Positions 3,927-62,668 of a stretch of DNA of 64,000 bases are shown in pieces (position 1 is the first letter of the stretch; each line of letters begins with the position of its first letter). The translations under genes and the position numbers were made by a program. Source of the stretch: a virus (lineage: Duplodnaviria; Caudoviricetes); the IMG/VR virus record IMGVR_UViG_3300026549_000043, positions 75,875 to 139,874 of that record. One strand, given 5' to 3'. A model generated the notes under the pieces. The model saw only the letters and a program-made list of their open reading frames with translations, did no database searches and was not told the origin of the DNA.

Positions 3927-4787
3927 ATGGCTAATAATAATAAATCTTTAACCACCCGTAAATTAGAATATGATAAAATTGTTGAATTTAGAAAATTACA
4001 TAGTATCGACTATCTAAATAATATAGCTAAGTTAATGGGTTATACAACAATATCAGAGGTATTTGATGATGGTTGGCCTATAACAGAACTAAAAAAATAT
4101 AGTGATGAAGCCAGTAAATTAACTTGAGGGGCTGATATTCCAAATAGATATTGAAAATTTATGTGTAGAGAAGTTTGTAATGAATATTTAACTGAAAAAT
4201 ATGGGTCACCTAAAGATTACTTCAATACAGAAGTTTTTATTAAACGGAGAGTAACAAATATAGGTAACACTATGGAAACTAGGTATGGGTATAGAAATCC
4301 TGGCCAATCACCTGAACACCGTGAACTTATGAAAAAGGGAAGTAATTGTAAAAATCCCTTTTCATCTGACTCTTTTAAATATAATTCATATATTCGTGGT
4401 AAAACGGTATTGCCAGAAGATAAAATAGCATATGATGAATATAGAAAAAAGGTTGATAAGCTCACAGATATAAATAAACAAAATTTACCTTTTACAGGTA
4501 TATGCTATTATACAGAATTACCTATTTTTAAATATGATGGTAATAAAACAATTAATAGAAATGATTGGAATATGGCTACAATAGATCATAAAATTTCTGT
4601 TATAGCTGGTTTTTTAAGAGGTATTTCTCCTGAAATTATTTCTAGTGTAGATAATTTATGTTGATGCTCAAAGTATTTTAATAGTTTCAAGGGTTCCAAA
4701 TGTGAAGATGAAATTAGGCTGTCAGGTCTGATCGAACGATTTAAGGAGGTTATTAAAAAATACTATGCAAGTAGTGAAGGTGACTAA
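3927..4787 (+). CDS. Free-standing HNH homing endonuclease (286 aa with TGA=Trp)
   Basis: Reading TGA at 4125, 4152 and 4662 as Trp joins two track ORFs and completes IDHKIS...DNLC(W)CSKYFNSFKG. It sits between the two intein halves. Confidence 0.85.
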
Positions 4788-7700
4788 ATTAAAGACAAAA
4801 TTTCCCCAGTGTGATCTCACAACTGATACAGAAAACTTTTATGTAAAAGTTGGTGACAAATACATTTTAGTACATAATTCCCCAGCTTTAATAGTATGGC
4901 ATGAATATCCAGGCTACCCAAATGATTCAGTAGCTCTAAAGGGTTTTCTTTCTGGACCACAAAATGCTATTTCTACTCCAGAACAAGTAGATGCTAAGTA
5001 TGGTGATAGACCAGGAATGTCTCAGATGTTGAAGTATGGATTACAAATAGCCAAAGAGATTCCTTCTGGTGAAGCTTGGCAGGGTGATTGCTTGTTTGTA
5101 AAAGATACCAAGAGGGAAGAAGAAATTAATGGTAAAGATTACATTACATTCCAGCCTAATAAGATTATCTATGCTTTTTCTGAAGATAATCCTGGGTATG
5201 AAAAAGTAAAGAATGCAGATTTTGGAATTGCTTTCCATACTATTTATACAGGTGAAGATAAGCATCAATCTTTTAAAGTAGATCCTTCAAAATTAAATGT
5301 TCCAGATAATATTTATATTATGTCTCCAACCTTAAATAGACCAAAAGATGTAAAGGTATTTAATTTGGATGGGGTTAAATCTCAATTTGATAAACTTCAG
5401 AATTTAGAACAAAAATTATTATCCAGTTTTGAATACGAAGATTTAGTTAATAATCAGGTATTCATGAAATACTGGAATACTTTTGAAAATGCTAATTTAG
5501 CTGATAAAAAATCTGTTACTATTAATGAAAATACTTTTATTAATGATTTAAAAGAATACATCAAAGATAAGAGAACAAAAGAATTTGAAACCCAGGTTGG
5601 TAAATTAAAGACTGATGCTGGGAAAGAAAAAGCTAAAACTAAGTATGAACAAGATTTAGAAGACTTACGAGAATTAATTGATCACAATAAAGATTTACTT
5701 ACTACACTAGTACAGACTCTTAATTGTGCTGCTACAATTAAAATGTTATTATGGCAAGGATTTAAACAAACACAATTTGACTATAATACTTTCTATCGTT
5801 CTAGAACTAAAGGTTATATTCCAGGTGAAATGGAAGGTGTAGCCATGAGTGACCAAGACGGTAATATTGTTAAGATCGTAGACCGTAGTACTTTTAGTTC
5901 TTATAATCGTGATCCCGATATCCTAGCGGGGTTCGATCACCCTGAAAATCTTACCGAAGAACAATCTTGTTTTATTGAAAAATATAATAAAGAATTAAGT
6001 GAATGTGAGACTAAACAACTTTGGGAAAGATTTGGTAGATTATTAGAAGATGACCAAAGAACTGTTGTATTAGCTTTCGGGAGACTTAATCCCCCTACCT
6101 GGGGTCATCGTAAATTAGTAGATAAGATGGCATCACTAGCTCAGAGTGAAAAGGCAAAGTTATTCTTAAGTCATACACAGGATAAGAAAAAGAACCCTTT
6201 AAGCTATGAAGATAAAATTCATTTTGCCAAAGAAGCTTTTGAACCTCAGATAGATGTCGTTAAGTCAGATGCAAGGACAATCATTGAAGTCTTAACCGAT
6301 CTTTATAAAGAAGGGGTAAAGAACATCATCTATGTTGGTGGAGAAGATCGTATTGGTGGAAAAGAAGATGTCTCTGACTTGATCCTAAGATATAATGGCC
6401 AACCAGATAAGCAAGGTAACATTCTATACGATTTTGATTCAATTCAATTTAAGAACGCTGGATCTAGATCAGATGACTCAGATGACTTTGTAGAAAGAGC
6501 TTCAGCAAGCTTAGCAAGAAAGTATGCCCAGGAGGGTGACTTTAAACACTTTAGTGAAATAGTCCCATTCAGTGATGCTGATGCCAAAGAACTTTATAAA
6601 AAGGTTAGATCTGGATTGGGTCTTAGTGATGAAATATTAACCGAAGCCAATTTTAGTTACCCAGATATCCTTAAAACAAACCATAGCTATTATCTTGATG
6701 TAGTCGATGATTTTTTAAGTGATGGTGTTGTTGGTGCTGATAATAATATATATAAGATAAAACCTACTCAAGATGCAGAAGAAGTTAAAAACGAATTAAT
6801 TTCTATTAAAGAATTAGTTGGTAAAAATAACCAAGAATTTAATAAAAAGTTTAAGGATATAACTGGTGTTGAATGGACTAAAATTTATAAGGGTAAATAT
6901 TCTGGTCATACAAATGGACAATCATCAGGTGAAGCAGCCGAGGCAGTAGTATCTTATTTATATAATAATCCGGGAAAGGATCTCCCAGATGGAGTAGAGA
7001 TCTCTGATAAATGGATTACCTCTTCTAAAAATATTGCTAATTTTTTAGAAAATATTTGGCCACATGAAAATTATTTTGCTATCCATGTTAATGGTAATGA
7101 TTTAGAACCTATTGGAGAATATAAGAATATTGGTAAATTATTTAAATCTAAAAAAGAAGCTGCCTCTGTTTTAGGATTAAAAAATGAACTAGATGATTTA
7201 TATGTAGGTGGAAAAGATACCTGGAATAAAGCTGATATTTTATTAGTTAAAAAAGGTGCTCCTATATTAAAGTACTTTGAAAATATTAAAAATAGCTCTG
7301 ATTATAATGAAAGGATAAATCAACTAGCTTCAGGGGATTCACCTTTATTAATCCCAGTGTCATTAAAGGGTGTTTCAAATAGAACAAACTTAACTGTTGT
7401 CCCAGAAGGATTTGATGCTGGTGAAGTCTTACATGCTAAAGATATAAAAGTAGTATTCCCAATAAAACCATTAGAGCCTGAAACTAATAATTGTAGTTGT
7501 TGGTTAATAGATAATCTGGGTAGAAGAATACAATTTAGAAGACAAACAGATACTGAAGATAATCTTAGTGTTGAAGTGTCATTGAATAAAGATTCTCGTG
7601 GAGGTAAGGGTATTACCAGATTGAAGAAAGAACTAGGATTGTCTAATAATGAATGGTATAAAACTCCTATAACTTCTGAGAATGAATTATATAGCAAACT

Positions 7701-7914
7701 TAGAAACCTAGGTGAATTATCAAAACCTAGTGATAATTTTATAAACGGTAATACTTCAGGTGAATACGCTTGGTATAATAGAACTTGTTTTAGAGGAATT
7801 ACTTCTTTATTTGAAGAATATCAAAATAAATTTGGTGGCAGTAATTTAGAATTTTTTGATTGGATATATGAAAATAGTACCATTGGTACCAGTGGATTTT
7901 ATTTAGTTTATTAA
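4765..7914 (+). CDS. Split-intein C-fragment (38 aa, ...ILVHN) plus C-extein: DUF6267-like domain, HIGH-type cytidylyltransferase/NMNAT-like domain and an unknown C-terminal domain
   Basis: MQVVKVTK...CDLT...NFYV...VHN/S; QGDCLF, TFQPN, GIAFHT, EGVAMSD..GNIVKIVDR; FGRLNPPTWGH; VGGEDR. Confidence 0.85.
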   Translation: MQVVKVTKLKTKFPQCDLTTDTENFYVKVGDKYILVHNSPALIVWHEYPGYPNDSVALKGFLSGPQNAISTPEQVDAKYGDRPGMSQMLKYGLQIAKEIPSGEAWQGDCLFVKDTKREEEINGKDYITFQPNKIIYAFSEDNPGYEKVKNADFGIAFHTIYTGEDKHQSFKVDPSKLNVPDNIYIMSPTLNRPKDVKVFNLDGVKSQFDKLQNLEQKLLSSFEYEDLVNNQVFMKYWNTFENANLADKKSVTINENTFINDLKEYIKDKRTKEFETQVGKLKTDAGKEKAKTKYEQDLEDLRELIDHNKDLLTTLVQTLNCAATIKMLLWQGFKQTQFDYNTFYRSRTKGYIPGEMEGVAMSDQDGNIVKIVDRSTFSSYNRDPDILAGFDHPENLTEEQSCFIEKYNKELSECETKQLWERFGRLLEDDQRTVVLAFGRLNPPTWGHRKLVDKMASLAQSEKAKLFLSHTQDKKKNPLSYEDKIHFAKEAFEPQIDVVKSDARTIIEVLTDLYKEGVKNIIYVGGEDRIGGKEDVSDLILRYNGQPDKQGNILYDFDSIQFKNAGSRSDDSDDFVERASASLARKYAQEGDFKHFSEIVPFSDADAKELYKKVRSGLGLSDEILTEANFSYPDILKTNHSYYLDVVDDFLSDGVVGADNNIYKIKPTQDAEEVKNELISIKELVGKNNQEFNKKFKDITGVEWTKIYKGKYSGHTNGQSSGEAAEAVVSYLYNNPGKDLPDGVEISDKWITSSKNIANFLENIWPHENYFAIHVNGNDLEPIGEYKNIGKLFKSKKEAASVLGLKNELDDLYVGGKDTWNKADILLVKKGAPILKYFENIKNSSDYNERINQLASGDSPLLIPVSLKGVSNRTNLTVVPEGFDAGEVLHAKDIKVVFPIKPLEPETNNCSCWLIDNLGRRIQFRRQTDTEDNLSVEVSLNKDSRGGKGITRLKKELGLSNNEWYKTPITSENELYSKLRNLGELSKPSDNFINGNTSGEYAWYNRTCFRGITSLFEEYQNKFGGSNLEFFDWIYENSTIGTSGFYLVY

Positions 7915-15335: not shown

Positions 15336-18300
15336 ATGAATAATATTTTAACTGAGGCCATCGGCGAAGATGGTTTAAACTTCAGAGATATTTATAATAA
15401 TTTAATGGAATCAACACATAATTTTACTGAAGAATCTGGTGATTTTAAATTTGATTCTAGTTTCGAAGCTAGCTTAGCTGAGAATATTTTAAAGGATAAA
15501 TATTCAGAAGTTGAAATTAAACCATTAGACATGGATGACGAAAATGAATTATTTTATACAGTACTTTATAAAGATCCTATTATTAAAGAGGATTATAAAG
15601 ATTTAGATTTTCAAGATAATAAAAATCCTGAGGGTACTCCATTAGGTAGTTTTGGTGAATCATTACTTTCTGAAGGACAGAAACCAGCCCATTGGGCAGT
15701 TATTAAATCTTCAGGTGGTAGAGGTAAAAATGGTTGGATAACTAATATCTCTGTTGAGGCTATTCCAAGTGAAATTAAAGACATGAATAGCCTTAAAGGA
15801 TTTAGTACTTGGGGACCTAATAATCAACATGTATCAAATAGATATAAGGCTGATTCTCTAGGTATATTTTCAACCAAAAAAGAGGCTCTAGAAAAAGTAA
15901 AAGAATTATTACGTAAAGAGCCTAACTATAGAGCCTTTGGAACCAACGCTGAAGAAGTAGAATTACTCGAAAAAATTATTAAGTTTGGCTCTAAATGGCA
16001 GGTGCAATCTGAGAAAGGTAAAAATATGGGAACTTATAATACTAAAAAAGAAGCCGAAGACAGATTAAAACAGGTAGAATATTTTAAACATATAAATGAA
16101 GGTATTTTTAGTAATATTGGTAAAACCGCAAAAATAGCTATGTTAGCTAAATGGGTTTCTAATCATGCTGATAAGGTTCAATATTGCTCTAAAAGGGATC
16201 AAGATCGCATATTAGAATTATTTAATGATATTAAACAGTATTCTAAGAATATTGACATTTTTGATAATACTGAATTTGAAGATGGCGCTGTTGAAGATAT
16301 TTTAGGCAAAATTGAAGACTGCTATGAAGATATAAAGGATATTATTAAAAATTCACAAATACATGAAAGTTTTGATTCTGATACTGTAGAAATTTCTTCA
16401 AAAATAAAAAATATTAATAATAAGATTATTTCACTTTTAAATGGAAGTGATTTAATAAATGAAGACCGTAAGTCAGATATTGAATCTACCCTTTTAGATG
16501 GTGAACCTACTTTCGCTGAATATATGGAAGATAATTATGGCATTGATATCTATGATGATGAAATTGCCGAGAACCCTGATGTAGAAGATCATTACTTAAA
16601 TGAGTATGAAAGCTATTTAGATCATTTATATGATTTAGATGATGAAAGTAATTATGATGCAGCCCACGCTGCTGAGTGGATGGAAAGATATCCTCATGGT
16701 TACTATAATAATGAGAATGACTATTGCGTTGATGATGAAGATGGTAGCCCAGATATTGATTTTGAAGAAGACGATGTTGACCCAGATCAATTCTTACAGG
16801 CTTACGAGTTAACTAAAGACATGGACGAAGATGAAGCTTGGGAATCTATTTCTCAAAGATTCGATAAGGAAAAAGATCTTGGATTCTGGGGACCAGATGA
16901 AGCTGAAAGAGGTAAACATGAGGTATTTGATTACTGGAAAGAAATTTCTTTAAAGGAAGACTTTGATCCAGAAGATCTTGTTATTGAATGTCCTCAATGT
17001 TTAAATGATTTAACTTTTGTTGGCTATCAGGGTGATTTAATTGAATTTAAATGTGATAGCTGTGAAAATTATTTCTATATGGATCCTAATACTAAAGAAT
17101 TACTTTCACCTACTGAACTAGATAAAAGATATTTAACCGAATCTACCAATGATCTTTATTATTTTAAGATTACAGGCCCAGTAAGAAAGCAGCGTGGGTG
17201 GTCTCCTGATGATGAACCTACAGTCTTTGTAACTGGAATCTGTGATGAATTAAAGGGTAGCAGAGGTTTTAGAGATGGTACTCACGAATTCCGTGAAAGT
17301 GATTTAGAACGTGTTGGAGCTAAGGTCGGTGATACCGTAGCCTGTCATGTTGATTGGGAAACAGATTATGATGGTCATCTAGAGTTAGAAGTAGACGTAG
17401 TCAAAAAAGTAGATGAAGTTTTAAAAGAAGCTAAGAATAAGAATTATAGAGTAGAGCTTTATTATTATGACAATAATAAACCTGACGATGTAATTTATTT
17501 CGAAAATACAAAAGCAGCTTATAATTTCTGTAATAATAAAATTTCAGATAATGCAGATTATGATGATGGCCTTACTGGTATTTTAGTATTTAATGAGGCT
17601 AAAGATAAATTATTAAATACCTGGCAAAATGGTAGCCGAGGATGGGAAAATAAATCTAAGGCATTAACTGAAGAAGTAAACTTACAGCCTGGAGACGTTA
17701 AGTGGTCTTGGTGGCTTCATAGATATTTAATTTATAAGGGGTTTGATAAATTTTCAAATAAATATGAGTTTGAGGACTTTGGAGATGATTTATTTGACCT
17801 TACGGCAGAAGAAGTTTCAAAATTAAAGGATAAATATGTTAGTAAAAATGAATCTTTAGATGAAGCAAAGACTCAAGAGTATGAGTATACACTTTATAAC
17901 ACGTTTTCAAAGAATTCGTTCCATAAGAAAGTAAAGTGCTCTTCTAAAGAAGAAGCAAAGAAGATCGCTGATGATGAGTTAAAGAAACTCCAAAAGAATG
18001 GACACTTTAAAGACTTTGTTGTTAAAGGTGTAAAAGAGCTACAAGAGTCTTTAGATGAAGCCAAAAACGATACACTTAATGCTGACATCTGAGATGAAAA
18101 TAATGAATTAAGACCTGAAGTTAGAGAAAAATTAAATTTAATTGTAGAAAAATTTAAAGATAATTTATCTGAAGATGGCGTAGATCTAGATATATCAGAT
18201 ATTATTATAGTAGGATCTAACGCTAATTATAATTATACTGACAAATCAGATATTGATTTACATATTATAGCTAACTTAGATATTTATAAAGATAAAGAAG

Positions 18301-18455
18301 ATTTAGCAAAAATTGTGTATAATGCTTATAGGCGTTTGTTTAATGATAAATTCGACCCTACCATAAGAGGGCATGAGGTTGAGTTGTTTGTAGAGTCGAA
18401 TGAGGATGATAATGATAATAATATTCCTGATGAGGTAGAAAATAACGAAGAATAG
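15336..18455 (+). CDS. 1039-aa acidic multi-domain head polyprotein ending in the N-terminal half of a Pol-beta-like nucleotidyltransferase
   Basis: TGA at 18090 as Trp gives LNADI(W)DENNELRPEVREKL...VGSNANYNY...SDIDLHI...HEVELFVE. Many L/I-x-E sites and a CPQC/CDSC zinc ribbon. Confidence 0.75.
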
Positions 18456-18471: not shown

Positions 18472-19224
18472 ATGAAGGTTAATAAAATTACCAAAAATAT
18501 TTCTGAATCAACATCTAATTCAAACGGAATTTATTCTTTAAATACTGGGTGGGTAAAGAAACCAGTAAAGGATGATATTCCAGAAGTAGATTTAGAACCT
18601 GATTTAACTGAGTGAAGAGACAGGGCCAAGAGCTGTAATTCTTTAGAAGATATAAATAGTTTTATAGATGATATTTATATCTTAAGACAGAATTCCATTA
18701 TGAATGATGGAGAATATGGAAAAGGGAACTTGATTTTTAAAGAAATTAGAAATGAAGGCATATTACAAGAATTGAAAGATAAAAAGGTTAATTTAGAAAA
18801 TAACGAAATGAGTATAAAAGAAGGATTAAAAGATTTTTCTAATGATGTAATTGAAAAACTACTTACTAAATATTCAGATTGTTCAAAGGATGAATTAGAT
18901 GATGTCTGGGATGAGATCGTAAGAGATTATAACGATACTGATTTAGCTGATGAAGTATGTGAATTATTAGATATTAGACTTGATGATTTATATAGTGAAT
19001 CATTAAAACCTATAAAAGAAGAACCATTAGATTATAATGAAAGTGATATTTTTAAACAAAAAAATGAAGCCTGTATCAAAGAATATAGGCAGTGAGCTGG
19101 ATTATCTGATGATGAATTAATCACTGAGGATAAAATAAATGAATGAGCTTTAAACCGTGTAAGCTGTAATAATAATTATGATTATAATGATTTAAAAGAA
19201 GTATTATGCGGTAATAATAAATAA
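18472..19224 (+). CDS. C-terminal half of the phage nucleotidyltransferase plus extra domains (250 aa, TGA=Trp)
   Basis: RBS aggagaagg; TGAs at 18613, 19093, 19144; SNGIYSL..GWVKEP...LRQNSIMNDGEYGKGNLIFKEIRN. Confidence 0.7.
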
Positions 19225-45356: not shown

Positions 45357-46259
45357 ATGGGAATAAATATTAGTTCAAATTATATACCAGCAATTAATAT
45401 AAATACAGGTATATCTGTTTCAGGAACTTTATCTGTAAATAGTAATTCTCTTTATGATGTTACAAATTATCAAACAGTAAATATAACCGGGGCCGAAGAT
45501 CTTTTAAAAACAAGATTAAATACACCTTCACAAATTACCAGTTATAGTAATGATAACTTAACCTATCTAGCTCCTGCGACGTTTTATTCAACGGGGATTA
45601 CAGCGGTAGATCTCACTGCTTGTACAAGTATTGGTAGTTATACATTTTATCAATGTTCATCATTAACTACAGCTAATTTTCCAAGTTGTACAACCATTGG
45701 TAACTACGCATTTTCAGGCTGTTACTTATTATCTACCGTAAGTTTCCCAGCCTGTACAAGCATGGGTAATTATGCCGTATTTTATAGCTGTCGATCCTTG
45801 ACCTCAGTTGATTTTCCTGTTTGTATAAACGTTGGCGTTTCAGCCTTTCGAGGCTGTTCATCCTTAACTACAGCTAATTTTCCAAGTTGTACAAGGATTG
45901 GTAACTACGCATTTTCAGGCTGTTACTTATTATCTACCGTAAGTTTCCCAGCCTGTACATACATTACTAACTATGCCTTTGCCTATTGTTACTTATTATC
46001 CTCAGTAAGTTTCCCAAGTTGTACAAGGATTGGTAGTGCTGCATTTAGAAATTGTTACCATCTACTTTCATTATACTTACTAGGCAGCAGTTTGTGCTCA
46101 TTGGGTAATGCTAATGCTTTTTCTTCTACACCAATCTCTGGATATACCACATCAACCGGCGGGGTATATGGTTCAATCTATGTACCTGCATCATTATATA
46201 ATTCCTATATAGTGTCAACAAATTGAGTAAACTACTCTTCAAGGTTTGTTAGTGTATAA
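45357..46259 (+). CDS. Cys-rich BspA-like LRR protein (TGA=Trp)
   Basis: Same repeats; ends TN(W)VNYSSRFVSV where both paralogues have TN-TGG-V. Confidence 0.85.
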
Positions 46260-48450: not shown

Positions 48451-49266
48451 ATGAGAGGTGTTCTTATGTTAGATCATGGTCTTGGATGTATTTGTAGTCC
48501 TACTGATGTTAGAGATTATAAATTAGCTAGGTCATCAGTTTCTTCAGTAGAGTTGCCTGAATCTTTTGAATGTGAAAAAAGAAGTAGAGTTAAAGATCAG
48601 AGGTCAGTTGGATCTTGTGTAGCTCATGCTGCTAGCTCAATATTAGAATATCATTATTCTCCTAATAATAGATTATCTACTAATTTTATTTATGGAATAC
48701 ATTATAAATTATTCGGGTCAGAAGGTCCTGGAGTTAGTCTAAGGGAAGCTTGTAAGATTATTTCTAAATATGGTGACCCTGAATTAAAATATTGTCCAGG
48801 TAATACTGAAGTAGAAAAAGTTTATGATTTAGCAGAAGAGTGTTTTGATAATCCTGAGGCTATGGAAAACGCCTCTAAATATAAAATAGATAATTATGTA
48901 AAATTATTAAGTGATAAAGATATTAAATATTCTATTTTTAATTACGGACCGGTATTAGCTGCTATAGAATGATTTGATTATAATGGCTGTGATTTTAAAG
49001 GTAAGCTAATAAAAAATGGTATATCTGAAGGTTACCATGCTATTATTATATATGGGTGAAATAAGGATGGATGGCTATGTCAAAATTCATGGGGTATAAC
49101 TTGAGGAAAGTCCGGATATTTTATTCTCCCTTATGATTATAAAATAAGAGAAAGTTATTCATTTGTGCCATCTTCATCTTTTGAAGAATTAGAAGTCCCA
49201 AAAAGAAATTCTTTCTTAGATGTATTTTATAAGATTATTAATTGGATTTTAAATTTTTGGGGGTAA
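48451..49266 (+). CDS. Papain-like C1 cysteine peptidase (TGA=Trp)
   Basis: DQRSVGSCVAHA. The catalytic HAIIIYG(W) and QNSWGIT(W)GKSGY appear only if TGA at 48970, 49057 and 49102 is read through. Confidence 0.88.
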
Positions 49267-49268
49267 AA

Positions 49269-49913
49269 GTGAAGATTTGTATTGGAATTATTAGTTATTT
49301 ACCAGATAACCAAGACATCAAATTAAAACGTTTATCAAAGTTAAATAATTTAATTTCAAGCTGTGATAGGCTTTTTAAATTACCAATAATTATCATTTCT
49401 CAAAATTGAAATGAAGTTAAATTAAATAAATTAAATGATTCAAAGTTAATTATATATAACTATAAAAACCCATTAGGTATTACTAAGGCTAGAAAAGAAT
49501 TAAGGAAAAAATTTTTGTCTTCTGAATATGACTATCTAATAATGTTAGACGACGATAGTGAATTAACTGGTACCCCTGAAGGTGCTCAGGGATATTTAGA
49601 TCAAATTTATGAACACCCAGATATGTATGGAGTTTTTAAATCAATGTTATTAAAATTATTTGCTATATCAAGGACGGTTTATCAATTAGTTGATTTTCCT
49701 GATTTAGAAGCCGGAAAAGGTGAATTTTTTGAAGATATGTATTTAATAATGTCTCTGAATAAAAAATATCCAGATAAAAAATTTATTTTTAAAAGATATG
49801 GAATAAATGAAAGTTCGAATTCTTCAAGTGACCCATTATCTACTTGGTATCATAAACAATTCATAAAAAGAAATATGGGTGATAGAACTCGTGAACTAGT
49901 GAGGAATCTTTAA
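49269..49913 (+). CDS. GT-A fold glycosyltransferase-like protein (TGA=Trp)
   Basis: GTG start; LGITKARKELR...YDYLIMLDDD, FFED; TGA at 49407. Confidence 0.75.
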
Positions 49914-49914
49914 G

Positions 49915-50574
49915 ATGTTAAGAAAGTGTATTGGAATAATAAGTTATTTCCCTGATGATTTAAAAGAGATACGGGAATCAGATTTAAATAATTTATTAAG
50001 AGATTGTTCTACTTATTTCCCATGAGTTGATGTTATTATTGTAGCTCAAAATTATAAAGGGTACATCCCTAAGTCTAATAAAAATAGAATAATTTTATAT
50101 TCTTATAAAGATAAACTGGGAATCACTGGTGCTAGAAAAAAGTTAAGAGAAATATTTATTAATTCTGAGTATGATTATCTAATAATGATGGATGACGACA
50201 ATCAAATACTTGGAAATACTAATAATAATCTATTAGAAGTTTTAGAGAATAACCCAGATAAATTTATTTGTTTCAATTGAGATTTTGGGCAATTATATTT
50301 ATTTACCATTTCAAAATCACTTTTTAAAAAAGTTGAATACCCAGAGTTAACTGCAGAGAATGGAGAAATCTTCGAAGACTTGTATTTATCTCAGATATGT
50401 AAAGCTTTATGCCCTAATTATATCGATTCTAAAGAAATAAATATTACTAGTAAAACTAGTGGTGATAAAAGTACTTGGTGGAATAATTCTTATAACTTAA
50501 AAAGAATGGTAGCTAATACTTATAAATTAATTGATAGTGATTTAAAAAATAAATATGGAACAATTAAAAAATAG
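49915..50574 (+). CDS. GT-A fold glycosyltransferase-like protein, tandem paralogue (TGA=Trp)
   Basis: CIGIISY.P, LGITGARKKLR...YDYLIMMDDD, IFED; TGAs at 50023 and 50278. Confidence 0.75.
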
Positions 50575-50631: not shown

Positions 50632-51825
50632 ATGGCTGTTGATAAAATAGATACAAAGGGATTAATCCCAACGACTAATTCATCTACTAATCAAGTAAAT
50701 AGTCAAATATTTACTACTAACCAAAATGCTAGTATGAATGTGGCTGAATCTGGAGGAACCTTTTCTTTTCTTTATGATCCAAGTATTTCTGAGCCTATTT
50801 TAGATATAAAAAATGATGATGATAATCTTTATGTAACTAAAATATCTAACTATAATAATTTTTATTATAAACGTGGTTATCATTATAAAAATAACGCTTT
50901 CCCAAGTGGTGGCTATAGTACAGCTATGAATATGTATTCTGATAACTGAGATAGAAGTTGGTATTCTAAACAAGGTTATAATAATGCCTCTAAATTTGAT
51001 AATTATACTGTCTTAGCTAATTGTGTAGGGTGGGCCAACGCTAGAGTATTAGAAGTTTGAAATAGAGCTTTAAAGAATGGATATATAAAATATGATGCTA
51101 GTAAGCAGGGTTATTTTTTAAAGAATGGTTCTCCAATTACTGGTAGAGTTTATGATAATGTAACAGGTAATGGCCCTACACCACCAGCTTGTAATGCCGT
51201 CAATTTTTATAAATATTGGCCAACGGCTACTGGATGGTCTAAGGGGTCTGAGCCAAAGGTAGGAGCTTTAATTGTTTGAGGAGCTCATTATAGTACTTCT
51301 GGTAACCCTGGACATGTAGCTTTTGTAGAAAAGGTAGAAGATAATGGCGATATAATTATTTCAGAATCTTCTGCTGCTAATAGTGGTATACATTGGCTGG
51401 TTCAGTTATATAAATTGAAAAAAAGTAATGGCTATACTAGATACTACGATCATGTCTTAGTAGGATTCTGTTATTCACCTGTATGTGAATTAGCTAGTAG
51501 TAATGGATATAGAACTGTTACGGAATTCGGTGGTATTATCGAACCTACACCTGAACAAATAGAAGCTTACAATAAGGCTGTTGAAAATATTTCAGGATTA
51601 ACCGTCGAAGTTGAATTTGATCCCAACGATAAAGTTGAAATTGTATGGTTAGGTAGTAAAGATCCTAATGGAGATTTTAGTATAAAAAGCAGAGTTAATA
51701 ATATGGGTGTAATTGGTATAGTCGGTAACAAAATAAATGGAGCTAAATTCCCATATCCGGTTAGACCAATTAACAGTAATTATATAATAGGCTATTACCG
51801 ATGAGAAGATTTAAAACGTGTATAA
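50632..51825 (+). CDS. Second CHAP-domain hydrolase (397 aa, four TGA=Trp)
   Basis: ANCVGW...PKVGALIV(W)G...GHVAFVE...ISES; TGAs at 50947, 51058, 51277, 51802. Confidence 0.82.
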
Positions 51826-51842: not shown

Positions 51843-53858
51843 ATGGCAATTAATAAAGATATAATTTTATTAGATACAGATAAAACCAAGTTATACCCAC
51901 TGGCACATAAGGATAGCGGCAATAATGTTATTGTAGATACTTATGTAAAAAAGGCCGGAGATATTATGACTGGTCCTTTAATTATAGAAGGCACTGCGGC
52001 CAGTAATCCACTGATTGTTAGAGGGATTAGCGGCTCTGATGGTAATGGAAATCTAGGTGATTTATTTCTTAATCGAAATGGAGGAGTTACTTACTTTGGT
52101 ACCTCTGGTGGGGGATATATTTCAGAAGATGGTAAATCATATTCAGGAAATGCTGCTACAGCTACTAAGGCTACTCAAGATGGTGATGGCAATACCATTT
52201 CTACGACGTATGTCAAAGAAGCTGGAGATACCATGACCGGCAGCTTATCATTTAGTAACGCCAATATTGGGGTACAAAGAGTAGGCCGTAGTATGTCTTG
52301 GCATAAAGGTAGAGATGGTGCTTTAGTAAAGACCACATCTATAGTTGGATATAGCCCTACAACTTCAACAAAAACTAATAATGGCTCCTGGGAAATTGGG
52401 GCCTATGATAATTCAAGTTATACTGATGATTTAGTATTTTCATATGTAAAAGATACTGATTACACTAATAATACCAATGCTCATACTGAAATAAAATTCT
52501 TGGAAAACGGTAGTATTGTGGCTAACCTCCAGGGAAATGTTACTGGTAATGTAACTGGAAATGTTACAGGTTCTTCATCTTTAAATGTTTTGAAGGCTGG
52601 GGATACCATGTCCGGTAATCTGTTTTTTGCTAATACTAATAACACAACTACTACTGGTTCTACTCCTTTGGGAATTTATGGCTCAGTAGGAGATAATGAT
52701 GGCTGAAGAATCGTTGGTTTAGGTAGTTCTAATGCTGGTTCATTAGAAATAGCTACTGATGATGACGGTAACGAACCTATTTATGTTAGACAATATAGCG
52801 GAGGCGGAAGTTCAGCTGGTTTTGTAACTATAGCTAGAACTTTAACTTTATTAGATGGTAATGGCAATACTACTATACCTGGAAGTTTACACCTAACTAG
52901 TAATAACGATGCTGCTGGTGGTTCTTTGGGTAGTCCACCACTAATTATAGGTACATCTACCGCACAACATATAGAAATAGATAATAATGAAATATTATCT
53001 AAATCAAATGGTACTACGCCTTCCACTTTGTATTTACAGGATAGTACCGGTGGTGTAGTAGTAGCAGGTTCAGGTGGGTTAAATGTTAATAATGGTAATT
53101 TAGCAGTTTCAGGAACTATTACTTCTACAGGTGCAATTTCAGCTACTGCAGGCAGTATCTGGGCAGGTACTGACGGAAACACGGCGGCAGAGAGAGACCT
53201 TGGTGTACAATCTGGTGCAGGGAGAATTTATTTATATTCGGCTGCAGCCACAAATGGTGCCAGGGGTATTTGGTTAACAGCACATGGTACTGATACTAGT
53301 GGTAAGAATGTTTTATCAGTTGATACCAATAATAATACTACTTTTTATGGTACTTTAAGTGGTACAGCTACTAATGCTACAAATATTAAGATAGCTAGTG
53401 GTACAAATGATAAAAGATATTTGGTTGGGGTTACAGATTACGCTTCTACAAATCAGGCGCCATATATTAGTGCTGAGAATAAATGTTATATGCAAAGTGG
53501 ATATTTGTATTCGAATGGCATAATAGTAAATAGTGTGACAACGGCCACTGGTGTTGTAACTAGATCTAGTGGGTGTACTTTAAAGTCTAGTACCATTAAT
53601 ATAGCTGGTAAAGTAGCACAGCTAAATGTTGTTTTAACAGGACCTAGTGGTTCACAAACTGATGGAACAATAATATTTGTTGGAACCATATCAAATACCG
53701 CATATCGGCCAAAAGCCTCAGCTAGAGGATGCGATACATATGGTACTTCATCTTTGATTGGATGGATCACTACTGGCGGAGAAGTAAATATTCGTGTTAT
53801 GGATGCCGGGACATATAACACTACGCTTGAAATGGCGTTTACCTATATAATTCCATAA
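51843..53858 (+). CDS. Tail fibre protein (671 aa, TGA=Trp)
   Basis: YVKKAGDxMTG repeats and GNVTGNVTG; TGA at 52704 within DG(W)RIVG...EIATDDDGNEPIYVRQY. Confidence 0.8.
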
Positions 53859-53884: not shown

Positions 53885-55867
53885 ATGTCTAACATAGAGT
53901 TAAAAAATTTAACAGAGCAAGAAAGAAAAGCTGTATTAGAAATATTAAAAGAATATTCAGATACAGGTAATTCAACTAGTTTGTCTTCTTTGATGTATGA
54001 AGACTGGGATGAAATACCTGTAGATATTACTACTTTTCTTCATAATAGAAAATATTTAGGAAATGCCTTATATGACCAGGAGGGTAAATTTACTTTATTT
54101 CCCTATTGGGAAGAAAAATTAAAAGACATTTTTCCTACTAATACTACTACAAAATATAACACTATTATATTTACTGGGGCAATTGGTTTAGGTAAATCTA
54201 CCATAGCAGTAATTTGTTTGTTATATTTACTATATAGATTACTTTGTTTAAAGGATCCATATTTATATTATGGAATGCAACCTATTGATAAAATAACCAT
54301 TTCTTTAATGAATATCACTATTGAAAACGCTAAGGGTGTTGCCTTAGATAAGATGAATCAAATGATTTTATCTAGTGAGTGATTTATGAATCATGGCGAA
54401 ATGGCGGGTATTTCAAATTTAGAATATAGGCCTGATAAACATATTGAATTAATAGTTGGTTCTAGTAATAACCAGGTTATTGGTAGAGCACTATATGCAA
54501 ACTTCGTAGATGAAGTAAACTGGGGATTAACCAACGATGTAGAGAAATTAAAGAAAAAGCAATTACAATTAATTTCTCAGATTGATGCCCGTATGAAATC
54601 AAGATTTATGAGAGGTACTTATTTACCTACTCTTAATATTATCGCTTCATCAAAGAACAGCGACCAATCTTTTTTGGAATCATTTATAGAAACAAAAAAG
54701 AAAAATGAATCTACAAATACTTTAATAGTAGATGAACCTCAATGGGTAGTAGATTCAAGAAAAGATAGCAAGGAACATTTCTTCGTAGCTATTGGAAATA
54801 AGTTTTTAGCTAACGAATTGATTCCGTTAAATTCTCCAAAAGAATTAATAAGTGAATACCGGGCTAAGGGGTATAATATATTAGAAGTACCTATTGGTTA
54901 TTATGAAAACTTTAAAGAAAATATAGATGGTGCCTTAACAGATATTGCCGGTATTGCTACTGCCTCTAGTTTAAAATATATCTCAGGTATTAGATGGAAT
55001 GAAATAAAAACTGATTCCTATAAAAATCCATTTACCAAAGAAATTATTGAGGTAGGAAATGCTAAAGATGATGTTTCTCAATATCAAGACTATTTTGATT
55101 TAACTAAAGTACCTTCTACTTTAAAATCAAAACCATTATATATTCACCTTGACATGTCTATGTCAGGAGATAAAACTGGTATTGCCGGTGTATATGTGGT
55201 AGGAAAAAGTCCAAAGGTAGAAGGAGAATCTAGTTCAAAAGAAATGTTCTATCAAGTAGCTTTTAATGTATCAGTAAAGGCTCCTAAGGGATATGAAATA
55301 TCTTTTGACAAAAATAGAACTTTTATTAGGTGGTTAAAGCAACAAGGTTTCAGAGTTAGAGGAATAAGCTCAGACTCATTCCAAAGTGCCCAGATCCAAC
55401 AGCAGTTAAATGCTGACGGGTTTAATTCTATTATCGTTTCAGTTGATAGATTAGATCCTACAAGTAAACAATGTTTACCTTACGCCTATTTAAAATCAAC
55501 GATTTATGATAGAAGATTAATAGTTTATAAAGATTGTGATTTCTTGACTGAAGAAGTTCTTGGATTAGAAAGAGAATCTGATGGCCATATTAATCACCCT
55601 GAAGGTGGTACTAAGGGTAGTAAGGACGCCATCGATGCGGTGTGTGGTGCTTTATGGAATGCTTCTCAGCATGCTGATGAATATAGCTATGAATATGGCG
55701 AAAACGCAAATATGGTAGCAGATTTTAATGATTATTTAATGAGCCCAACAGAATCATTTCAAAATAGTTTATTAAATTTAAATGATTCTAAAAATAGACC
55801 AGTAATAGATTTCGGAATGGGTGATGCCGTTGATTATCTCCCATCTGATGGTATAATATTATTTTAA
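53885..55867 (+). CDS. terL: Terminase large subunit (660 aa, TGA=Trp)
   Basis: Walker A GAIGLGKS, then SSE(W)F at TGA 54380, Walker B FVDEVN, nuclease HLDMS..GD.TG and SKDAIDAVCG. Confidence 0.9.
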
Positions 55868-55881: not shown

Positions 55882-57738
55882 ATGCCTAATAATAATGATG
55901 AAACTTTCAATAATATAGATTATAAAAATAAAGCTGTAGCGGTACCACTACCAGATAGAATTAATGATATTGATACTAAAAATACTTTATATAAAAATAT
56001 TATTGATGCAGCTGACAATAATACTTTAGATCTTAGTGATATTAACTCATTTACTTCAATATCTCAATCTAGAGATGAAGTCTATAACTTAATTGATGAG
56101 ATGGCCCAAGACCCAATAATTTCAGTAGCTTTAGATATTTATACCTCTGATGCTTGTGAACCTAATGAACAGGGAAAAATCGTATGGGCAGAAGCTGAAG
56201 ATGAAAGAGTACTTGGAGAAATTGAACACTTATTAGATTATATGAGTGTTGATAAAAATATCTTCGGGTGGATGTATTCATTAATTAAATATGGTGATTT
56301 ATATTTAAGACTTTATAGAGACTCAGAATATAACTCAGATATATTCAAAAAATCAGAAGTATTAAATGAAGATGTAATCTTAAAAGCCTATAAGCAAAAT
56401 GATCACTTCGCTGAATATATGGAAATCGTTAAAAATCCAGCCGAGGTATTTGATTTACAAAGATTCGGTAAAACTGTTGGTTATATTAGATCTCATATAC
56501 AGACTAGATCTCCTAACTCAGATGATATAACTACTCAATATACTAATTTATTTAAGTATAACTTCAATAGAGGAGACGTAGATTTATATCCGGCCACAGA
56601 TTTAGTTCATGCTTGTTTAGAAGATAATTCTAGCCGTACATCCGAAGAAGTAACTATTTTTAATTCTGACTCAAGTGAAGGAGACGGTATTAGCTATTCA
56701 GTTAAGCGTGGCCAGTCGATCTTGTATAATATTTTTAAGATCTGAAGAGAATTATCTTTATTAGAAAATTCAGTATTATTAAATAGAATTACCAAGTCAT
56801 CAATTATTAGAACTGTTTCTGTTGAAGTTGGTGATATGGAAAAGAATGATGTCCAGAAGTTATTACAGAGAATTAAACAGATGATTGAACAGAAATCAGC
56901 TATTAATGTTAATAACTCATATAATGATTATACCAACCCAGGTCCGATAGAAAATGTTATTTATATTCCAACCCATGATGGTAAGGGTGCTATTACTACA
57001 GGGCAAATTGGTGGCGATGTTAATGTCGGAGATCTAGTAGATTTAGATTATTTCAAAAATAAATTATATGGAGCATTAGGAATTCCAAAACAATACTTAG
57101 GTGATACAGATGATGCTACAGGATTTAATGGCGGTACAGCATTATCTCTTACTTCTAGTAGATATGCTAAGACTGTTAAGAGAGTCCAGAATGCAATGAT
57201 CCAGGCTTTAACTGATGCAATTAATTTAATGTTATTTGATAAAGGGTTAACAAATTATATTAATGAATTTAGATTAAAAATGCAGGCACCTACAACTCAG
57301 GAAGAAAAAGACCGTAAAGAAAATTTATCAAGTTCTATTTCAAATATCAGAGAAATTATGAGCTTGGTAGATATGATTGAAGACCCAATTACAAAATTAA
57401 ATATTTTAAAATCATTATTATCAAATACTATCTCAGATATTAATGTAATTACAGCAATCCAGGATGAAATTGAAAGATTGACTTCTGAAGCTGAGGGCGA
57501 AGAACCTGGTGAAGATGAGATGTCTGAGGAATCTGGTGGCAGTGATGAATTTGACTTCGACTTTGGTGGTGAAGAATCTTTACCTACACCAGAAGAATCA
57601 GGTAGTGCTGAAATGGAAATTCCAGAAGAACCAGCTGAAAGCTTTGAAACAGGAGATGGTGAATTATTAACTGAACAATCAGATAATAATTTACCTAACT
57701 GGTCAGAGTTAGGTATGTCATATACTGACACTTTCTAA
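55882..57738 (+). CDS. T4 gp20-like portal protein (618 aa, TGA=Trp)
   Basis: LIKYGD.Y; GQSILYNIFKI(W)RELSLLENSVLLNRITKS across TGA 56743; DLDYFKNKLYGALGIPK. Confidence 0.88.
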
Positions 57739-61753: not shown

Positions 61754-61839
61754 TAAACAGTAGAGGCATTAATTAGTGATAATTAATGGAAAGCATTTAA
61801 TTTCTAATAAAGTTTACATAGCCAAATATATAATATAAA

Positions 61840-61930
61840 ATAAATAAGTGGGACAGTAGGTTCGAAACTATTTCTAATTACCGCATTAATTAGATTACCA
61901 CTATTTATACATTACTATGCGGGGTAAATT
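61840..61930 (+). ncRNA. Structured leader RNA, copy 2
   Basis: Same fold as 60450-60538; loop CCGCAT pairs with ATGCGG at the RBS. Confidence 0.7.
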
Positions 61931-62668
61931 ATGATTATATATAAAATAACAAATTTAGTAAACAATAAAATTTATATTGGTCAAACTAGAAATTCATTAA
62001 ATTCTAGATGAAGCTGTCACATTAGAGATAGCAAATACGCTTCAACCGGTATTGATTCAGCTATCAGAAAATATGGAAAAGAAAATTTCAAGGTTGAGGT
62101 ATTAGACGATACCGCTTCTTCACTGGAAGAATTAAATAATTTAGAAATATATTATATAAAGTTATATAATTCTACTAATAATAAAATAGGTTATAACCAA
62201 ACTACTGGTGGCGGTGGAATCTCAGGCTATACTCATAACGAAGAATCCAAGTATAGATGTGGATCTTCATTTAGAGGTAAAAAAAGAATTAAAACAGTTG
62301 ATCAAGTAGATAAGTGACGTATAACATTTTATAAGAATAATAATCATATAAAGAGTGAAGAATTCTGTCGTAAACAAAGTGAAAATTTAAAATTAGCTTA
62401 TGCATCGGGTAGAAGAAAACCAAATGGAAAAGGAGTCGGCGGTAGAAAGCCAATGTCTGAAGAAGAAAAAATAAGAAATAGCGTTACTCAAAGTGGAGCC
62501 AAAAAGATGTTTCATAAAAAATTGGAAATTATTACACTTGTTTATAAAGATGAAATATCTGACAGATTATCCGAGGAATTTGAATTTTGTACAAAATCAA
62601 ATAACTTTATATGAAAAGATTATAAATATGTAAAACGTAAAGAATTTAAAATGCTAAAACCCTTTTAA
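61931..62668 (+). CDS. Intron-encoded GIY-YIG homing endonuclease (245 aa, TGA=Trp; absent from the ORF track)
   Basis: MIIYKITNLVNNKIYIGQT...R(W)..H...AIRKYG.ENF...E..YI...GYN...GG; TGAs at 62009, 62315, 62612. Confidence 0.9.

What the first reader, a model, noticed from the sequence alone, without database searches (positions are those of the whole stretch)
3927..62668. TGA is read as Trp, mainly in late, virion and mobile genes, including terminase and portal
Seen: 32 in-frame TGAs in 17 genes, each restoring a continuous protein. Internal controls support Trp. TN-TGA-V at 46224 aligns with TN-TGG-V in two paralogues. CHAP PKVGALIV-TGA aligns with PKVGAIIC-TGG. NV*EPGVYG*, papain QNSWGIT*G and GIY-YIG R*xxH are conserved Trp positions. 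gyrA, recA, the permease cluster and the 8.7-10.3 kb genes use only TGG. Terminase and portal each contain one TGA. Established: stop-codon-recoded phages are known, often with recoding biased to late genes. Inference: the CHAP and M23 hydrolases imply a walled host that probably uses code 11, so UGA read-through could gate DNA packaging until a phage suppressor is made. The capsid, protease, holins, main endolysin and M23 peptidase contain no TGA, so any gate acts on packaging rather than lysis.
Basis: partly seen in the sequence, partly recalled or inferred. Interest (0 to 1): 0.88.

Follow-up and report, generated by a model that had tools for sequence, protein, structure and literature searches.

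The report
Phage reading TGA as tryptophan
This roughly 140-kb rumen or gut phage reads the stop codon TGA as tryptophan in about a quarter of its genes, a known habit of some gut phages, and it carries its own unusual UGA-reading tRNA just outside the window.

Summary
The window holds 32 in-frame TGAs in 17 ORFs, and each one joins two pieces into a continuous protein. Where relatives align well, TGA falls on Trp: terminase 54380 is TGG in 7 of 7 relatives, and portal 56743 is an invariant W in 38 homologues.

Across the whole 139,874-bp contig, TGA supplies about 13% of Trp codons. Its use is patchy rather than late-specific: virion modules run at 12-15%, the small-gene region at 11% and the core replication block at 4%. 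Virion modules versus the rest give p = 0.15. Only nuclease (homing-endonuclease-like) ORFs are clearly enriched, at 33-54%. A gate on packaging is not supported.

The genome has no release-factor or TrpRS gene. It does encode a covariation-supported 98-nt tRNA(UCA) with a long variable arm, 28 kb upstream of the window and next to tRNA-Trp(CCA). Sibling phages use TAG with a tRNA(CUA), or use the standard code.

This matches published stop-codon-recoded gut phages (Borges et al., the 'Agate' type). Other first readers of this scan flagged the same recoding and the same tRNA on this genome.

One new lead emerged. The variable-arm loop of these suppressor tRNAs copies the anticodon loop of tRNA-Trp in the UCA tRNAs, and of tRNA-Gln in the CUA tRNAs.

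The parts
3927..4787 (+). Endonuclease VII-like free-standing nuclease ORF with TGAs at 4125, 4152 and 4662
   Evidence: Table-4 ORF. Matches phrog_1035 endonuclease VII, E 3e-5. 3 TGA against 2 TGG.
15336..18455 (+). 1039-aa protein with a TGA at 18090 (codon 919)
   Evidence: The phrog_36119 match covers residues 904-1024 and so spans the TGA. There are 120 open codons downstream.
18472..19224 (+). 250-aa protein with TGAs at 18613, 19093 and 19144
   Evidence: The phrog_36119 match covers residues 7-113 and spans codon 48.
19250..20326 (+). AAA_5 ATPase with a TGA at 19511 (codon 88)
   Evidence: The Pfam AAA_5 match covers residues 70-214 and spans the TGA.
25308..26027 (+). 239-aa ORF of unknown function with TGAs at 25362 and 25923
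   Evidence: Continuity of the table-4 ORF only. No family match and no informative relatives.
27975..28346 (+). 123-aa ORF with a TGA at 27993 (codon 7)
   Evidence: Weak. The TGA aligns to TGA in L006/L007 at 27% identity. It may instead lie upstream of the true start.
28837..31146 (+). Collagen-repeat (fibre-like) protein with TGAs at 29089 and 30580
   Evidence: Pfam Collagen, E 5e-31, on the read-through protein. There are 684 and 187 open codons downstream of the two TGAs.
43564..43962 (+). Double CBM5/12 protein with TGAs at 43921 and 43942
   Evidence: Both TGAs fall on the Trp positions that are TGG in the first repeat of the same protein.
45357..46259 (+). BspA-type LRR protein with a TGA at 46224
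   Evidence: The C-terminus beyond the TGA is homologous to that of the paralogue 44369-45352, which has TGG at this site.
48451..49266 (+). Papain-family (C1) peptidase with TGAs at 48970, 49057 and 49102
   Evidence: The Pfam Peptidase_C1 match covers residues 36-227 and spans all three TGAs. The motif QNSWGITwG is present.
49242..49913 (+). 223-aa glycosyltransferase-like ORF with a TGA at 49407
   Evidence: Relatives have TGG 4 times, TGA twice and TAT twice at this site.
49915..50574 (+). GT2-like ORF with TGAs at 50023 and 50278
   Evidence: ORF continuity only. Alignments to relatives are gapped at these sites.
50632..51825 (+). CHAP-domain protein with TGAs at 50947, 51058, 51277 and 51802
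   Evidence: 51058 is TGG in L006/L007. 51277 aligns with the TGG of the CHAP paralogue 46909-48090. 51802 lies 6 codons from the end and aligns with Arg in relatives, so it is ambiguous.
51843..53858 (+). Tail-fibre-like protein with a TGA at 52704 (codon 288)
   Evidence: TGG in L001, at 89% identity. The phrog_10316 match covers residues 272-364 and spans the TGA.
53885..55867 (+). Terminase large subunit with a TGA at 54380 (codon 166)
   Evidence: tblastn alignments to phage terminases run from residue 4 to 638. The site is TGG in 7 of 7 related loci.
55882..57738 (+). T4-type portal protein with a TGA at 56743 (codon 288)
   Evidence: The Pfam Portal_T4 match covers residues 65-522. W288 is invariant in 38 homologues.
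61931..62668 (+). GIY-YIG endonuclease in the capsid-gene intron region, with TGAs at 62009, 62315 and 62612
   Evidence: Pfam GIY-YIG. The R-w-x-x-H motif is present. 3 TGA against 0 TGG. A group I intron core lies at 62620-62897.

Best explanation
The contig is a T4-portal-type myovirus from ruminant or pig gut metagenomes. It has reassigned TGA from stop to tryptophan for its own genes while infecting a walled, standard-code host, probably Bacillota.

Decoding is most likely done by a phage-encoded 98-nt tRNA with anticodon UCA, at contig 47366-47463, about 28.4 kb upstream of the window. This tRNA has A1-U72, G73 and an encoded CCA, like the tRNA-Trp(CCA) gene 3 nt downstream of it. It would be charged by the host TrpRS and compete with host RF2 (inferred).

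TGA has almost vanished as a terminator: all ORFs can end in TAA or TAG. It supplies about 13% of Trp codons, in a patchy pattern. It is rich in nuclease and homing-endonuclease ORFs. It is present in the tail-fibre, lysis, terminase and portal genes and in many small or metabolic genes. It is absent from the core replication block, the gyrA-recA block and a 12.7-kb tail/baseplate block.

Shown here: the in-frame TGAs, their Trp identity, the tRNA gene and its conserved fold.

Inferred: Trp charging, competition with RF2, and any role in timing.

This is the phenomenon described for stop-codon-recoded gut phages, and it closely fits the 'Agate' clade as described.
For: - TGA is sense and is Trp.
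- The +4 base after internal TGAs resembles that after TGG (p = 0.27) and differs from that after real stops.
- tRNA(UCA): the Rfam tRNA-Sec model scores 39 bits, E 1e-5, and the MFE fold is a cloverleaf.
- In 4 own-type homologues 100% of 112 pair cells are paired, and 11 of 28 pairs show compensatory change, spread over all five helices. Slid controls give at most 46% paired.
- L016 was found by synteny and not by the search pattern, and it keeps the CU-UCA-AA loop.
- All 10 fetched contigs over 4 kb that carry this tRNA family have higher coding density under code 4 than under code 11, by 0.09-0.21.
- Sibling phage L018 has a tRNA(CUA) at the same locus, and its coding density is 0.90 with TAG as sense against 0.70 under code 11. 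Other relatives fit code 11.
- There is no RF-1/PCRF or TrpRS domain in the contig.
- CHAP, M23 and papain-like hydrolases are present.
- The nearest cultured relatives infect Streptococcus, Listeria and Bacillus. The best bacterial matches of the permease gene are Erysipelotrichaceae and other Bacillota.
- Borges et al. (bioRxiv 10.1101/2021.08.26.457843) describe the Agate clade with the same features. These are 127-154 kb genomes from cattle, pig and tortoise gut with Firmicutes hosts. Codes 11, 4 and 15 occur in one clade, intron endonuclease and tail genes are TGA-rich, replication genes use the standard code, and TGA stops are depleted.
Against: - Nothing here shows that the tRNA is expressed or charged with Trp. 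A long variable arm plus G73 is also what SerRS recognises (PMC5389517; PMC9976931).
- 13 TGAs lie within 12 codons of an ORF end, against 4.4 expected. Some may therefore still act as leaky stops backed up by TAA or TAG, although their +4 context looks like that of sense codons.
- The record is rated 83% complete, so code-change genes could lie in a missing part.
- The host is not identified. The bacterial matches are only 32-36% identical.
- Membership of the Agate clade could not be tested by sequence.
Confidence: 0.85

Rival explanations
1. Temporal gate. Early genes are read in the host's code. The suppressor tRNA appears later, and only then can terminase and portal be made. UGA would therefore time DNA packaging specifically, and not lysis.
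For: - Terminase and portal each need one read-through.
- The core replication block (contig 26.5-42.2 kb) and the gyrA-recA block have no TGA.
- The general idea is the published hypothesis for recoded phages.
Against: - There is no significant late bias: odds ratio 1.6, p = 0.15, and p = 0.71 against the small-gene region.
- Domain-internal TGAs occur in a peptide deformylase, a metallophosphatase, a resolvase and an AAA ATPase.
- A 12.7-kb virion block, the capsid, the protease and the sheath have none.
- Lysis-type enzymes (the second CHAP protein and the papain-like peptidase) are recoded too.
- A sigma-70-like site sits directly upstream of the tRNA block (not above chance). If real, it would allow early tRNA expression.
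Confidence: 0.25
2. The host itself uses code 4 (a Mollicutes-like bacterium), and the phage simply shares its host's code.
For: TGA is Trp is the Mycoplasma/Spiroplasma code. The genome is AT-rich at 31% GC.
Against: - Only about 13% of Trp codons are TGA.
- The phage carries its own tRNA(UCA).
- It encodes CHAP, M23 and papain-like wall hydrolases, and relatives carry PG_binding_1.
- Close relatives use TAG recoding or the standard code.
- The nearest cultured relatives and the bacterial gene matches are walled Bacillota.
Confidence: 0.05
3. UGA is decoded as another residue. Serine is one option, because of the long variable arm and G73. The others are Sec, Cys or Gly.
For: - The tRNA resembles tRNA-Sec and allo-tRNA scaffolds, which SerRS charges.
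- aragorn labels it SeC.
Against: - Aligned residues in relatives are W, then Y and F, and never S, C or G.
- The sites are invariant Trp positions.
- All members keep A1-U72 and G73 (Trp identity marks in bacteria). They also keep C2-G71, which in E. coli tRNA-Leu is an antideterminant against SerRS (PMC9976931).
- The fold is 7/5, not 8/5.
- Code 25 (Gly) is excluded by the alignments.
Confidence: 0.06
4. The TGAs are real stops: split genes, pseudogenes, assembly errors or low-level programmed read-through without a dedicated tRNA.
For: - Default aragorn finds no tRNA(UCA).
- Some TGAs sit very near ORF ends.
Against: - 17 window ORFs, and about 42 across the contig, would all be broken at Trp positions, including essential single-copy genes.
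- Homologous sites in independent contigs carry TGG or TGA.
- There is no leaky +4 context.
- A conserved tRNA(UCA) is present.
Confidence: 0.02

Closest known systems
Stop-codon-recoded gut phages, especially the TGA-recoded 'Agate' clade (Borges et al. 2021/2022, bioRxiv 10.1101/2021.08.26.457843)
   Same: - Genome size class, and cattle, sheep or pig gut origin.
- TGA read as Trp in a presumably standard-code Firmicutes host.
- Codes 11, 4 and 15 among close relatives.
- A phage suppressor tRNA.
- TGA-rich intron endonuclease and tail or lysis-neighbourhood genes.
- Replication core in the standard code.
- TGA nearly unused as a stop.
   Different: - Clade membership was not tested by sequence.
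- Here the late-gene bias is not statistically significant.
- Several metabolic and small genes are also recoded.
TAG-recoded crAss-like and Lak phages (code 15; validated by metaproteomics, PMC9523058)
   Same: The same strategy: a stop codon turned into a sense codon by a phage suppressor tRNA in a standard-code host.
   Different: A different codon and amino acid (TAG to Gln) and different phage lineages and hosts (Bacteroidota). A TAG-using sibling of the present phage does exist (L018).
Genetic code 4 of Mycoplasma and Spiroplasma
   Same: UGA is read as Trp by a tRNA with anticodon UCA.
   Different: There the reassignment is cellular and TGA is the main Trp codon. Here it belongs to the phage, is used sparsely (13%), and uses a long-variable-arm tRNA.
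tRNA-Sec and allo-tRNAs (Mukai et al., PMC5389517)
   Same: UCA anticodon, an extended D stem with a 4-nt loop (own type), a long variable arm and G73. The tRNA is picked up by the tRNA-Sec covariance model.
   Different: - A 7/5 fold, not 8/5, 8/4 or 9/3.
- A1-U72 and C2-G71.
- It scores below the Rfam gathering threshold.
- The decoded sites are Trp positions.
- No SelA/SelB/SECIS context was seen, although this was not searched exhaustively.
Classical opal suppressors derived from tRNA-Trp (anticodon UCA, charged by TrpRS; cited in Borges et al.)
   Same: The UCA anticodon together with the Trp acceptor identity marks (A1-U72, G73).
   Different: The phage tRNA has an added variable-arm hairpin whose loop repeats the tRNA-Trp anticodon loop.

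Membership tests
Stop-codon-recoded phage, TGA to Trp (code 4 type) | In-frame TGAs in conserved genes that align with Trp in homologues | tested here: met
Stop-codon-recoded phage, TGA to Trp (code 4 type) | Gene calls improve under code 4 (higher coding density, no split genes) | tested here: met
   Coding density 0.885 rises to 0.936. TAG-as-sense control gives 0.889.
Stop-codon-recoded phage, TGA to Trp (code 4 type) | Phage-encoded suppressor tRNA matching the recoded stop codon | tested here: met
   tRNA(UCA) at contig 47366-47463. Expression and charging were not tested.
Stop-codon-recoded phage, TGA to Trp (code 4 type) | Host uses the standard code | tested here: inconclusive
   Indirect evidence only: wall hydrolases, sparse TGA use, siblings with other codes, and Bacillota affinities.
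Stop-codon-recoded phage, TGA to Trp (code 4 type) | Recoding concentrated in late (structural and lysis) genes | tested here: not met
   Odds ratio 1.6, p = 0.15. Use is patchy instead, with nuclease ORFs enriched and the replication core depleted. Published clades also vary in this respect.
'Agate' clade (Borges et al.) | Placement in the terminase phylogeny with named Agate genomes | not testable with these tools
   No Agate sequences are held. The GenBank phage collection has no close DNA or protein match.
Bacterial tRNA-Sec | 8/5 acceptor/T fold, a score above the Rfam gathering threshold, and use at Sec/Cys positions | tested here: not met
   The fold is 7/5. The score is 39.3 bits against a threshold of 47. 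The sites are Trp.
Code 25 (TGA read as Gly, Absconditabacteria phages) | TGA aligns with Gly | tested here: not met
   No Gly at any well-aligned site.

The most novel reading that the evidence does not exclude
The suppressor tRNAs of recoded phages may solve their charging problem with a second, decoy anticodon loop.

In every tRNA(UCA) of this family the variable-arm hairpin has the loop motif UCCAA(A). That covers 3 subtypes and 14 sequences, including one found by synteny. The motif is U33-A38 of the tRNA-Trp anticodon loop CUCCAAA. In one subtype all 7 stem pairs covary while the loop GUCCAAA is invariant.

In long-variable-arm tRNA(CUA)s from TAG-recoded phages the same hairpin reads YU-CUG-AR or UU-UUG-AG, which is the tRNA-Gln anticodon loop.

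The hairpin would let host TrpRS, or GlnRS/GluRS, both anticodon-dependent enzymes, accept a tRNA whose real anticodon reads a stop codon. I found no description of this in the searchable literature.

Alternatives are a remnant of an anticodon-arm duplication, or a target for another anticodon-loop-binding factor.
Probability: 0.35. Interest if true: 0.85.

Novelty: new member of a known kind. Interest (0 to 1): 0.45.

Why it matters
The recoding itself is ordinary for gut phages. It matters for annotation, because code 11 breaks 17 genes in this window, including terminase and portal.

Two points add something.

- **Pattern of use.** In this genome the published rule 'late genes only' does not hold. 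TGA use is patchy, strongest in mobile nucleases, and present in metabolic genes. This fits drift and module exchange in a genome that always has its suppressor at least as well as it fits a timing switch.

- **The suppressor tRNA.** It is non-canonical and default tRNA finders miss it. This helps explain why only about 35% of code-4 phages were reported to have one. Its variable arm carries a copy of the cognate anticodon loop. If that copy is what lets host synthetases charge stop-codon readers, it answers an open question about how phages change the code. It would also offer a design principle for engineered suppressor tRNAs.

Tried and rejected
- A DNA search of GenBank phages with the terminase-portal region found no match.
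- The search for related loci with window proteins 4765-7914 and 23038-24954 found no relatives in IMG/VR. TGAs in window 4-28 kb therefore could not be checked against relatives.
- An exact search for the 17-nt anticodon arm gave only three unrelated chance hits.
- Default aragorn finds no tRNA(UCA). Lowering its threshold floods the output with false calls, so the tRNA rests on Infernal, folding and covariation instead.
- RF-1, PCRF and class Ib synthetase domains are absent. One sub-threshold PCRF hit inside the portal gene is noise.
- Host search with the permease gene gave only 32-36% matches to Erysipelotrichaceae, Solobacterium, Clostridia and Lactobacillus. This is too weak to name a host.
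There is therefore no read-level or RNA evidence.
- Leaky-context read-through is rejected, because the +4 base after TGA resembles that after TGG.
- I considered Hirsh-type suppression by tRNA-Trp(CCA), which has the U11-A24 pair. From memory that pair is native to Bacillus-type tRNA-Trp, and a dedicated UCA tRNA exists, so I kept it only as a minor possible contribution.
- An Rfam E-value search of the GC-rich block around the tRNAs found no GOLLD, ROOL or other family.

Full report
**Context.** The window is the last 64 kb of a single 139,874-bp IMG/VR virus record (G000:C1:75875-139874). The record has 31% GC, nearly all genes on the + strand, is classed linear, and is rated 83% complete by CheckV. 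The portal, prohead protease, Gp23-type capsid, sheath, terminase and a full replication set show it to be a large myovirus. Thousands of metagenomic relatives exist, from sheep and cattle rumen, pig gut and similar samples. The nearest cultured phages infect Streptococcus, Listeria and Bacillus, at 28-34% portal identity.

**Observation.** Other 'odd' table-4 ORFs are artefacts. Examples are the 5' extensions at 4702 and 42981, minus-strand ORFs, and ORFs lying over the tRNA block.

The effect is specific to TGA. Coding density is 0.885 under code 11, 0.936 with TGA as sense and 0.889 with TAG as sense. ORFs stopped by TGA remain open for a median of 60 codons. After TAA the median is 10 codons, and after TAG it is 6.

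**Which amino acid.**
- Terminase TGA 54380 is TGG in all seven related loci, which are 74-90% identical.
- Portal TGA 56743 is an invariant Trp in 38 homologues. It is TGG in five loci and TGA in one.
- 52704 is TGG in L001.
- Across the whole contig, at well-aligned sites, relatives carry TGG 38 times, TGA 14, Tyr 9 and Phe 7, plus a few scattered others. Gly, Ser and Cys never appear.

- The BspA-LRR protein continues after 46224 with a C-terminus homologous to that of its paralogue, which has TGG there.
- The two CHAP domains align, PKVGALIV-TGA against PKVGAIIC-TGG.
- The second CBM5/12 repeat puts both of its TGAs on the Trp positions of the first repeat.
- The papain NSWG..WG motif and the GIY-YIG RW..H motif each carry a TGA at W.

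Profile matches run across the TGAs. The base after internal TGAs is distributed like the base after TGG (p = 0.27), and unlike the base after TAA or TAG stops. TGA as Trp is therefore established as far as sequence can establish it.

**Distribution.** I curated the table-4 ORFs of the whole contig and counted Trp codons. There are 60 internal TGAs, 13 more within 12 codons of an ORF end, and 408 TGG.

| Module | TGA share of Trp codons |
|---|---|
| Virion module 1 (contig 1-27 kb) | 14.9% |
| Core replication block (27-47 kb) | 3.8% |
| Small-gene region (49-76 kb) | 11.0% |
| Window 0-28 kb (gyrA ... recA ...) | 8.2% |
| Window 28-64 kb (fibres, lysis, packaging, head) | 12.1% |
| Nuclease ORFs | 54% |

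- Virion modules against everything else give an odds ratio of 1.6, p = 0.15. Against the small-gene region, p = 0.71. Against the replication core, p = 0.08.
- Nuclease ORFs are enriched. For the five ORFs first chosen, p = 2e-7. For the five with a family match only, p = 0.006.
- Use is clustered: fewer genes carry TGA than in random placement (p = 0.004). Long TGG-only runs cover contig 26.5-42.2 kb and 75.8-93.6 kb, and most of window 31-48 kb. The last run is really broken at 43.9 kb by the proven TGAs of the CBM protein.
- TGAs inside domain matches occur in a peptide deformylase, a metallophosphatase, a Holliday-junction resolvase and an AAA_5 ATPase.

A gate specific to packaging is not supported, because a CHAP protein and a papain-like peptidase are recoded as well.

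The 13 TGAs near ORF ends exceed the 4.4 expected. They may be residual leaky stops backed up by TAA or TAG. Alternatively, they may be places where a TGG-to-TGA change costs least. At least three of them (43921, 43942, 46224) are proven sense codons, and their +4 context looks like that of sense codons.

**Mechanism.** No release-factor or TrpRS domain is present. Default aragorn finds only tRNA-Trp(CCA) and tRNA-Gln(UUG), and Rfam adds a tRNA-Thr(UGU).

An E-value search then found a 94-nt match to the tRNA-Sec model at contig 47366-47459 (39.3 bits, below the threshold of 47, E 1e-5). Its anticodon loop is CU-UCA-AA. The 98-nt sequence, with its encoded G73-CCA, folds into a cloverleaf with:
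- a 7-bp acceptor stem;
- a 5-bp D stem with a 4-nt loop;
- a 5-bp anticodon stem;
- an 8-bp variable arm;
- a 5-bp T stem.

It ends 3 nt before tRNA-Trp(CCA). Other first readers flagged the same tRNA. I tested it independently.
- The closest relative, L015, has an aragorn-default tRNA(UCA) at the same place, downstream of the clamp loader.
- L016, found by synteny, keeps the UCA loop while all its stems change.
- A pattern that left the variable region free recovered 18 further loci from rumen-type metagenomes, giving 14 unique sequences in three subtypes.
- On four own-type sequences every one of 112 pair cells is paired. 11 of 28 pairs show compensatory change, spread over all five helices, while slid controls reach at most 46%.
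- All members keep A1 (rarely G1)-U72, C2-G71 and G73. G73, the first base pair and the anticodon are the bacterial Trp identity set. C2-G71 is a reported antideterminant against SerRS (PMC9976931).
- All ten longer contigs that carry this tRNA fit code 4 better than code 11.
- Sibling L018 has a tRNA(CUA) at the same locus and fits TAG as sense (0.90 against 0.70). Other relatives fit code 11.

Recoding is therefore a property of the phage lineage and not of the host. With the wall hydrolases and the sparse use of TGA, this makes a code-4 host unlikely.

An earlier report on another genome judged a similar 'UGA tRNA' to be a module of a large noncoding RNA. That caution applies here, because the tRNA sits in a conserved GC-rich noncoding block. 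Here, though, the genome needs a UGA reader, the anticodon tracks the recoded stop codon in siblings, and the full cloverleaf covaries.

**A new lead.** In all UCA tRNAs the loop of the variable-arm hairpin contains UCCAA(A). The variants are GUCCAA, UUCCAA, CUCCAAC, GUCCAAA and CUUCCAAAA. This is the anticodon loop of tRNA-Trp (CUCCAAA) from U33 onward.

In subtype B all seven variable-stem pairs change on both sides, with 100% pairing, while the loop GUCCAAA is invariant.

A matching scan for long-variable-region tRNA(CUA) gave 24 loci. In 17-18 of them the hairpin loop is YU-CUG-AR, the anticodon loop of tRNA-Gln(CUG), with covarying stems. L018 has UU-UUG-AG. These contigs fit TAG as sense.

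Among 69 unique long tRNAs in all fetched loci:

| tRNA group | Trp-type motif | Gln-type motif |
|---|---|---|
| UCA (10) | 9 | 0 |
| CUA (23) | 0 | 17 |
| Leu, Ser, Tyr, Ile, Val (36) | 1 | 0 |

I infer that the hairpin is a surrogate anticodon loop, and that anticodon-dependent host synthetases use it to charge stop-codon readers. This is unproven. I found no description of it in the searchable literature. Subscription journals are not covered by that search.

**Comparison with what is known.** Borges et al. describe TGA- and TAG-recoded gut phages infecting standard-code Firmicutes and Bacteroidetes. Their 'Agate' clade has these features:
- genomes of 154 +/- 27 kb, with a 127-kb TGA lineage from cattle, pig and tortoise;
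- codes 11, 4 and 15 among close relatives;
- suppressor tRNAs detected in only 35% of code-4 genomes;
- TGA stops nearly absent;
- a group I intron endonuclease and a tail gene most biased towards TGA;
- replication genes in the standard code.

The present phage fits this description in almost every respect. The finding is therefore a new member of a known kind, and possibly of that very clade, which I could not test. The protein collection already holds the 618-aa read-through portal of this contig, so at least one pipeline has already called it in code 4.

**Verdict.**
- Observation: confirmed.
- Trp, phage-specific recoding and a phage suppressor tRNA: supported.
- Late-gene restriction and a packaging gate: not supported.
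- Interest of the recoding itself: modest.
- The non-canonical suppressor tRNA and its anticodon-like variable loop are the part worth pursuing.

Noticed in passing
outside the window: contig 47366-47463 (L010:9366-9463, + strand), 28.4 kb before the window start: A 98-nt tRNA(UCA) with a long variable arm, A1-U72, G73 and an encoded CCA, 3 nt upstream of tRNA-Trp(CCA). Default aragorn misses it. The fold is supported by covariation in relatives.
   Followed up: yes
L094-L135 and L015, L016, L018 (related phage contigs): The variable-arm loop of phage tRNA(UCA) reads UCCAA(A), like the tRNA-Trp anticodon loop. The loop of long-arm tRNA(CUA) reads YUCUGAR or UUUUGAG, like the tRNA-Gln anticodon loop. 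Each motif is specific to its anticodon class, and both are almost absent from other long tRNAs: the Trp motif occurs in 1 of 36 and the Gln motif in 0 of 36.
   Followed up: partly
outside the window: contig about 47250-48730 (L010:9250-10730): A GC-rich (42-48%) ORF-free block of about 1.5 kb around and after the tRNAs. It is conserved at 82-97% nucleotide identity, in blocks, with relatives whose clamp-loader proteins are only 61-64% identical. It has no Rfam family apart from the tRNAs, so it is a candidate large structured RNA. An IF-1-like ORF follows at about contig 49040-49255.
   Followed up: partly
L018 (IMGVR_UViG_3300001598_001126) 11640-11727: A sibling phage (56% clamp-loader identity) has a tRNA(CUA) at the same locus. 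Its coding density is 0.90 with TAG as sense against 0.70 under code 11. The stop codon that is reassigned therefore switches within the lineage.
   Followed up: partly
window 60162-64000: The capsid gene appears split. A 74-aa ORF (60162-60386) is followed by a DUF7487 endonuclease ORF (60539-61441), the GIY-YIG ORF (61931-62668), an Rfam group I intron core (62620-62897) and then the Gp23-type ORF from 62931. The PHROG major-head profile is matched only from its position 76 onward.
   Followed up: partly
window 62854-64000 against contig 1-1168: The contig end repeats the contig start at 93.5% identity, in two blocks with an unaligned stretch between them. This points to a circularly permuted genome assembled from two strain variants, or to a diverged terminal repeat. 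IMG/VR classes the record as linear.
   Followed up: partly
window 15336-19224: PHROG family 36119 (247 positions) is matched in two halves. Positions 15-135 match the C-terminus of the 1039-aa ORF, and positions 130-245 match the N-terminus of the next ORF (18472-19224). This is a possible split or rearranged gene.
   Followed up: no
window 10344-13486 and contig 57380-58093: Host-like auxiliary genes are present: a nucleoside 2-deoxyribosyltransferase, a xanthine/uracil permease, a PnrA/Bmp-type nucleoside-binding lipoprotein, and a peptide deformylase that contains a TGA.
   Followed up: no
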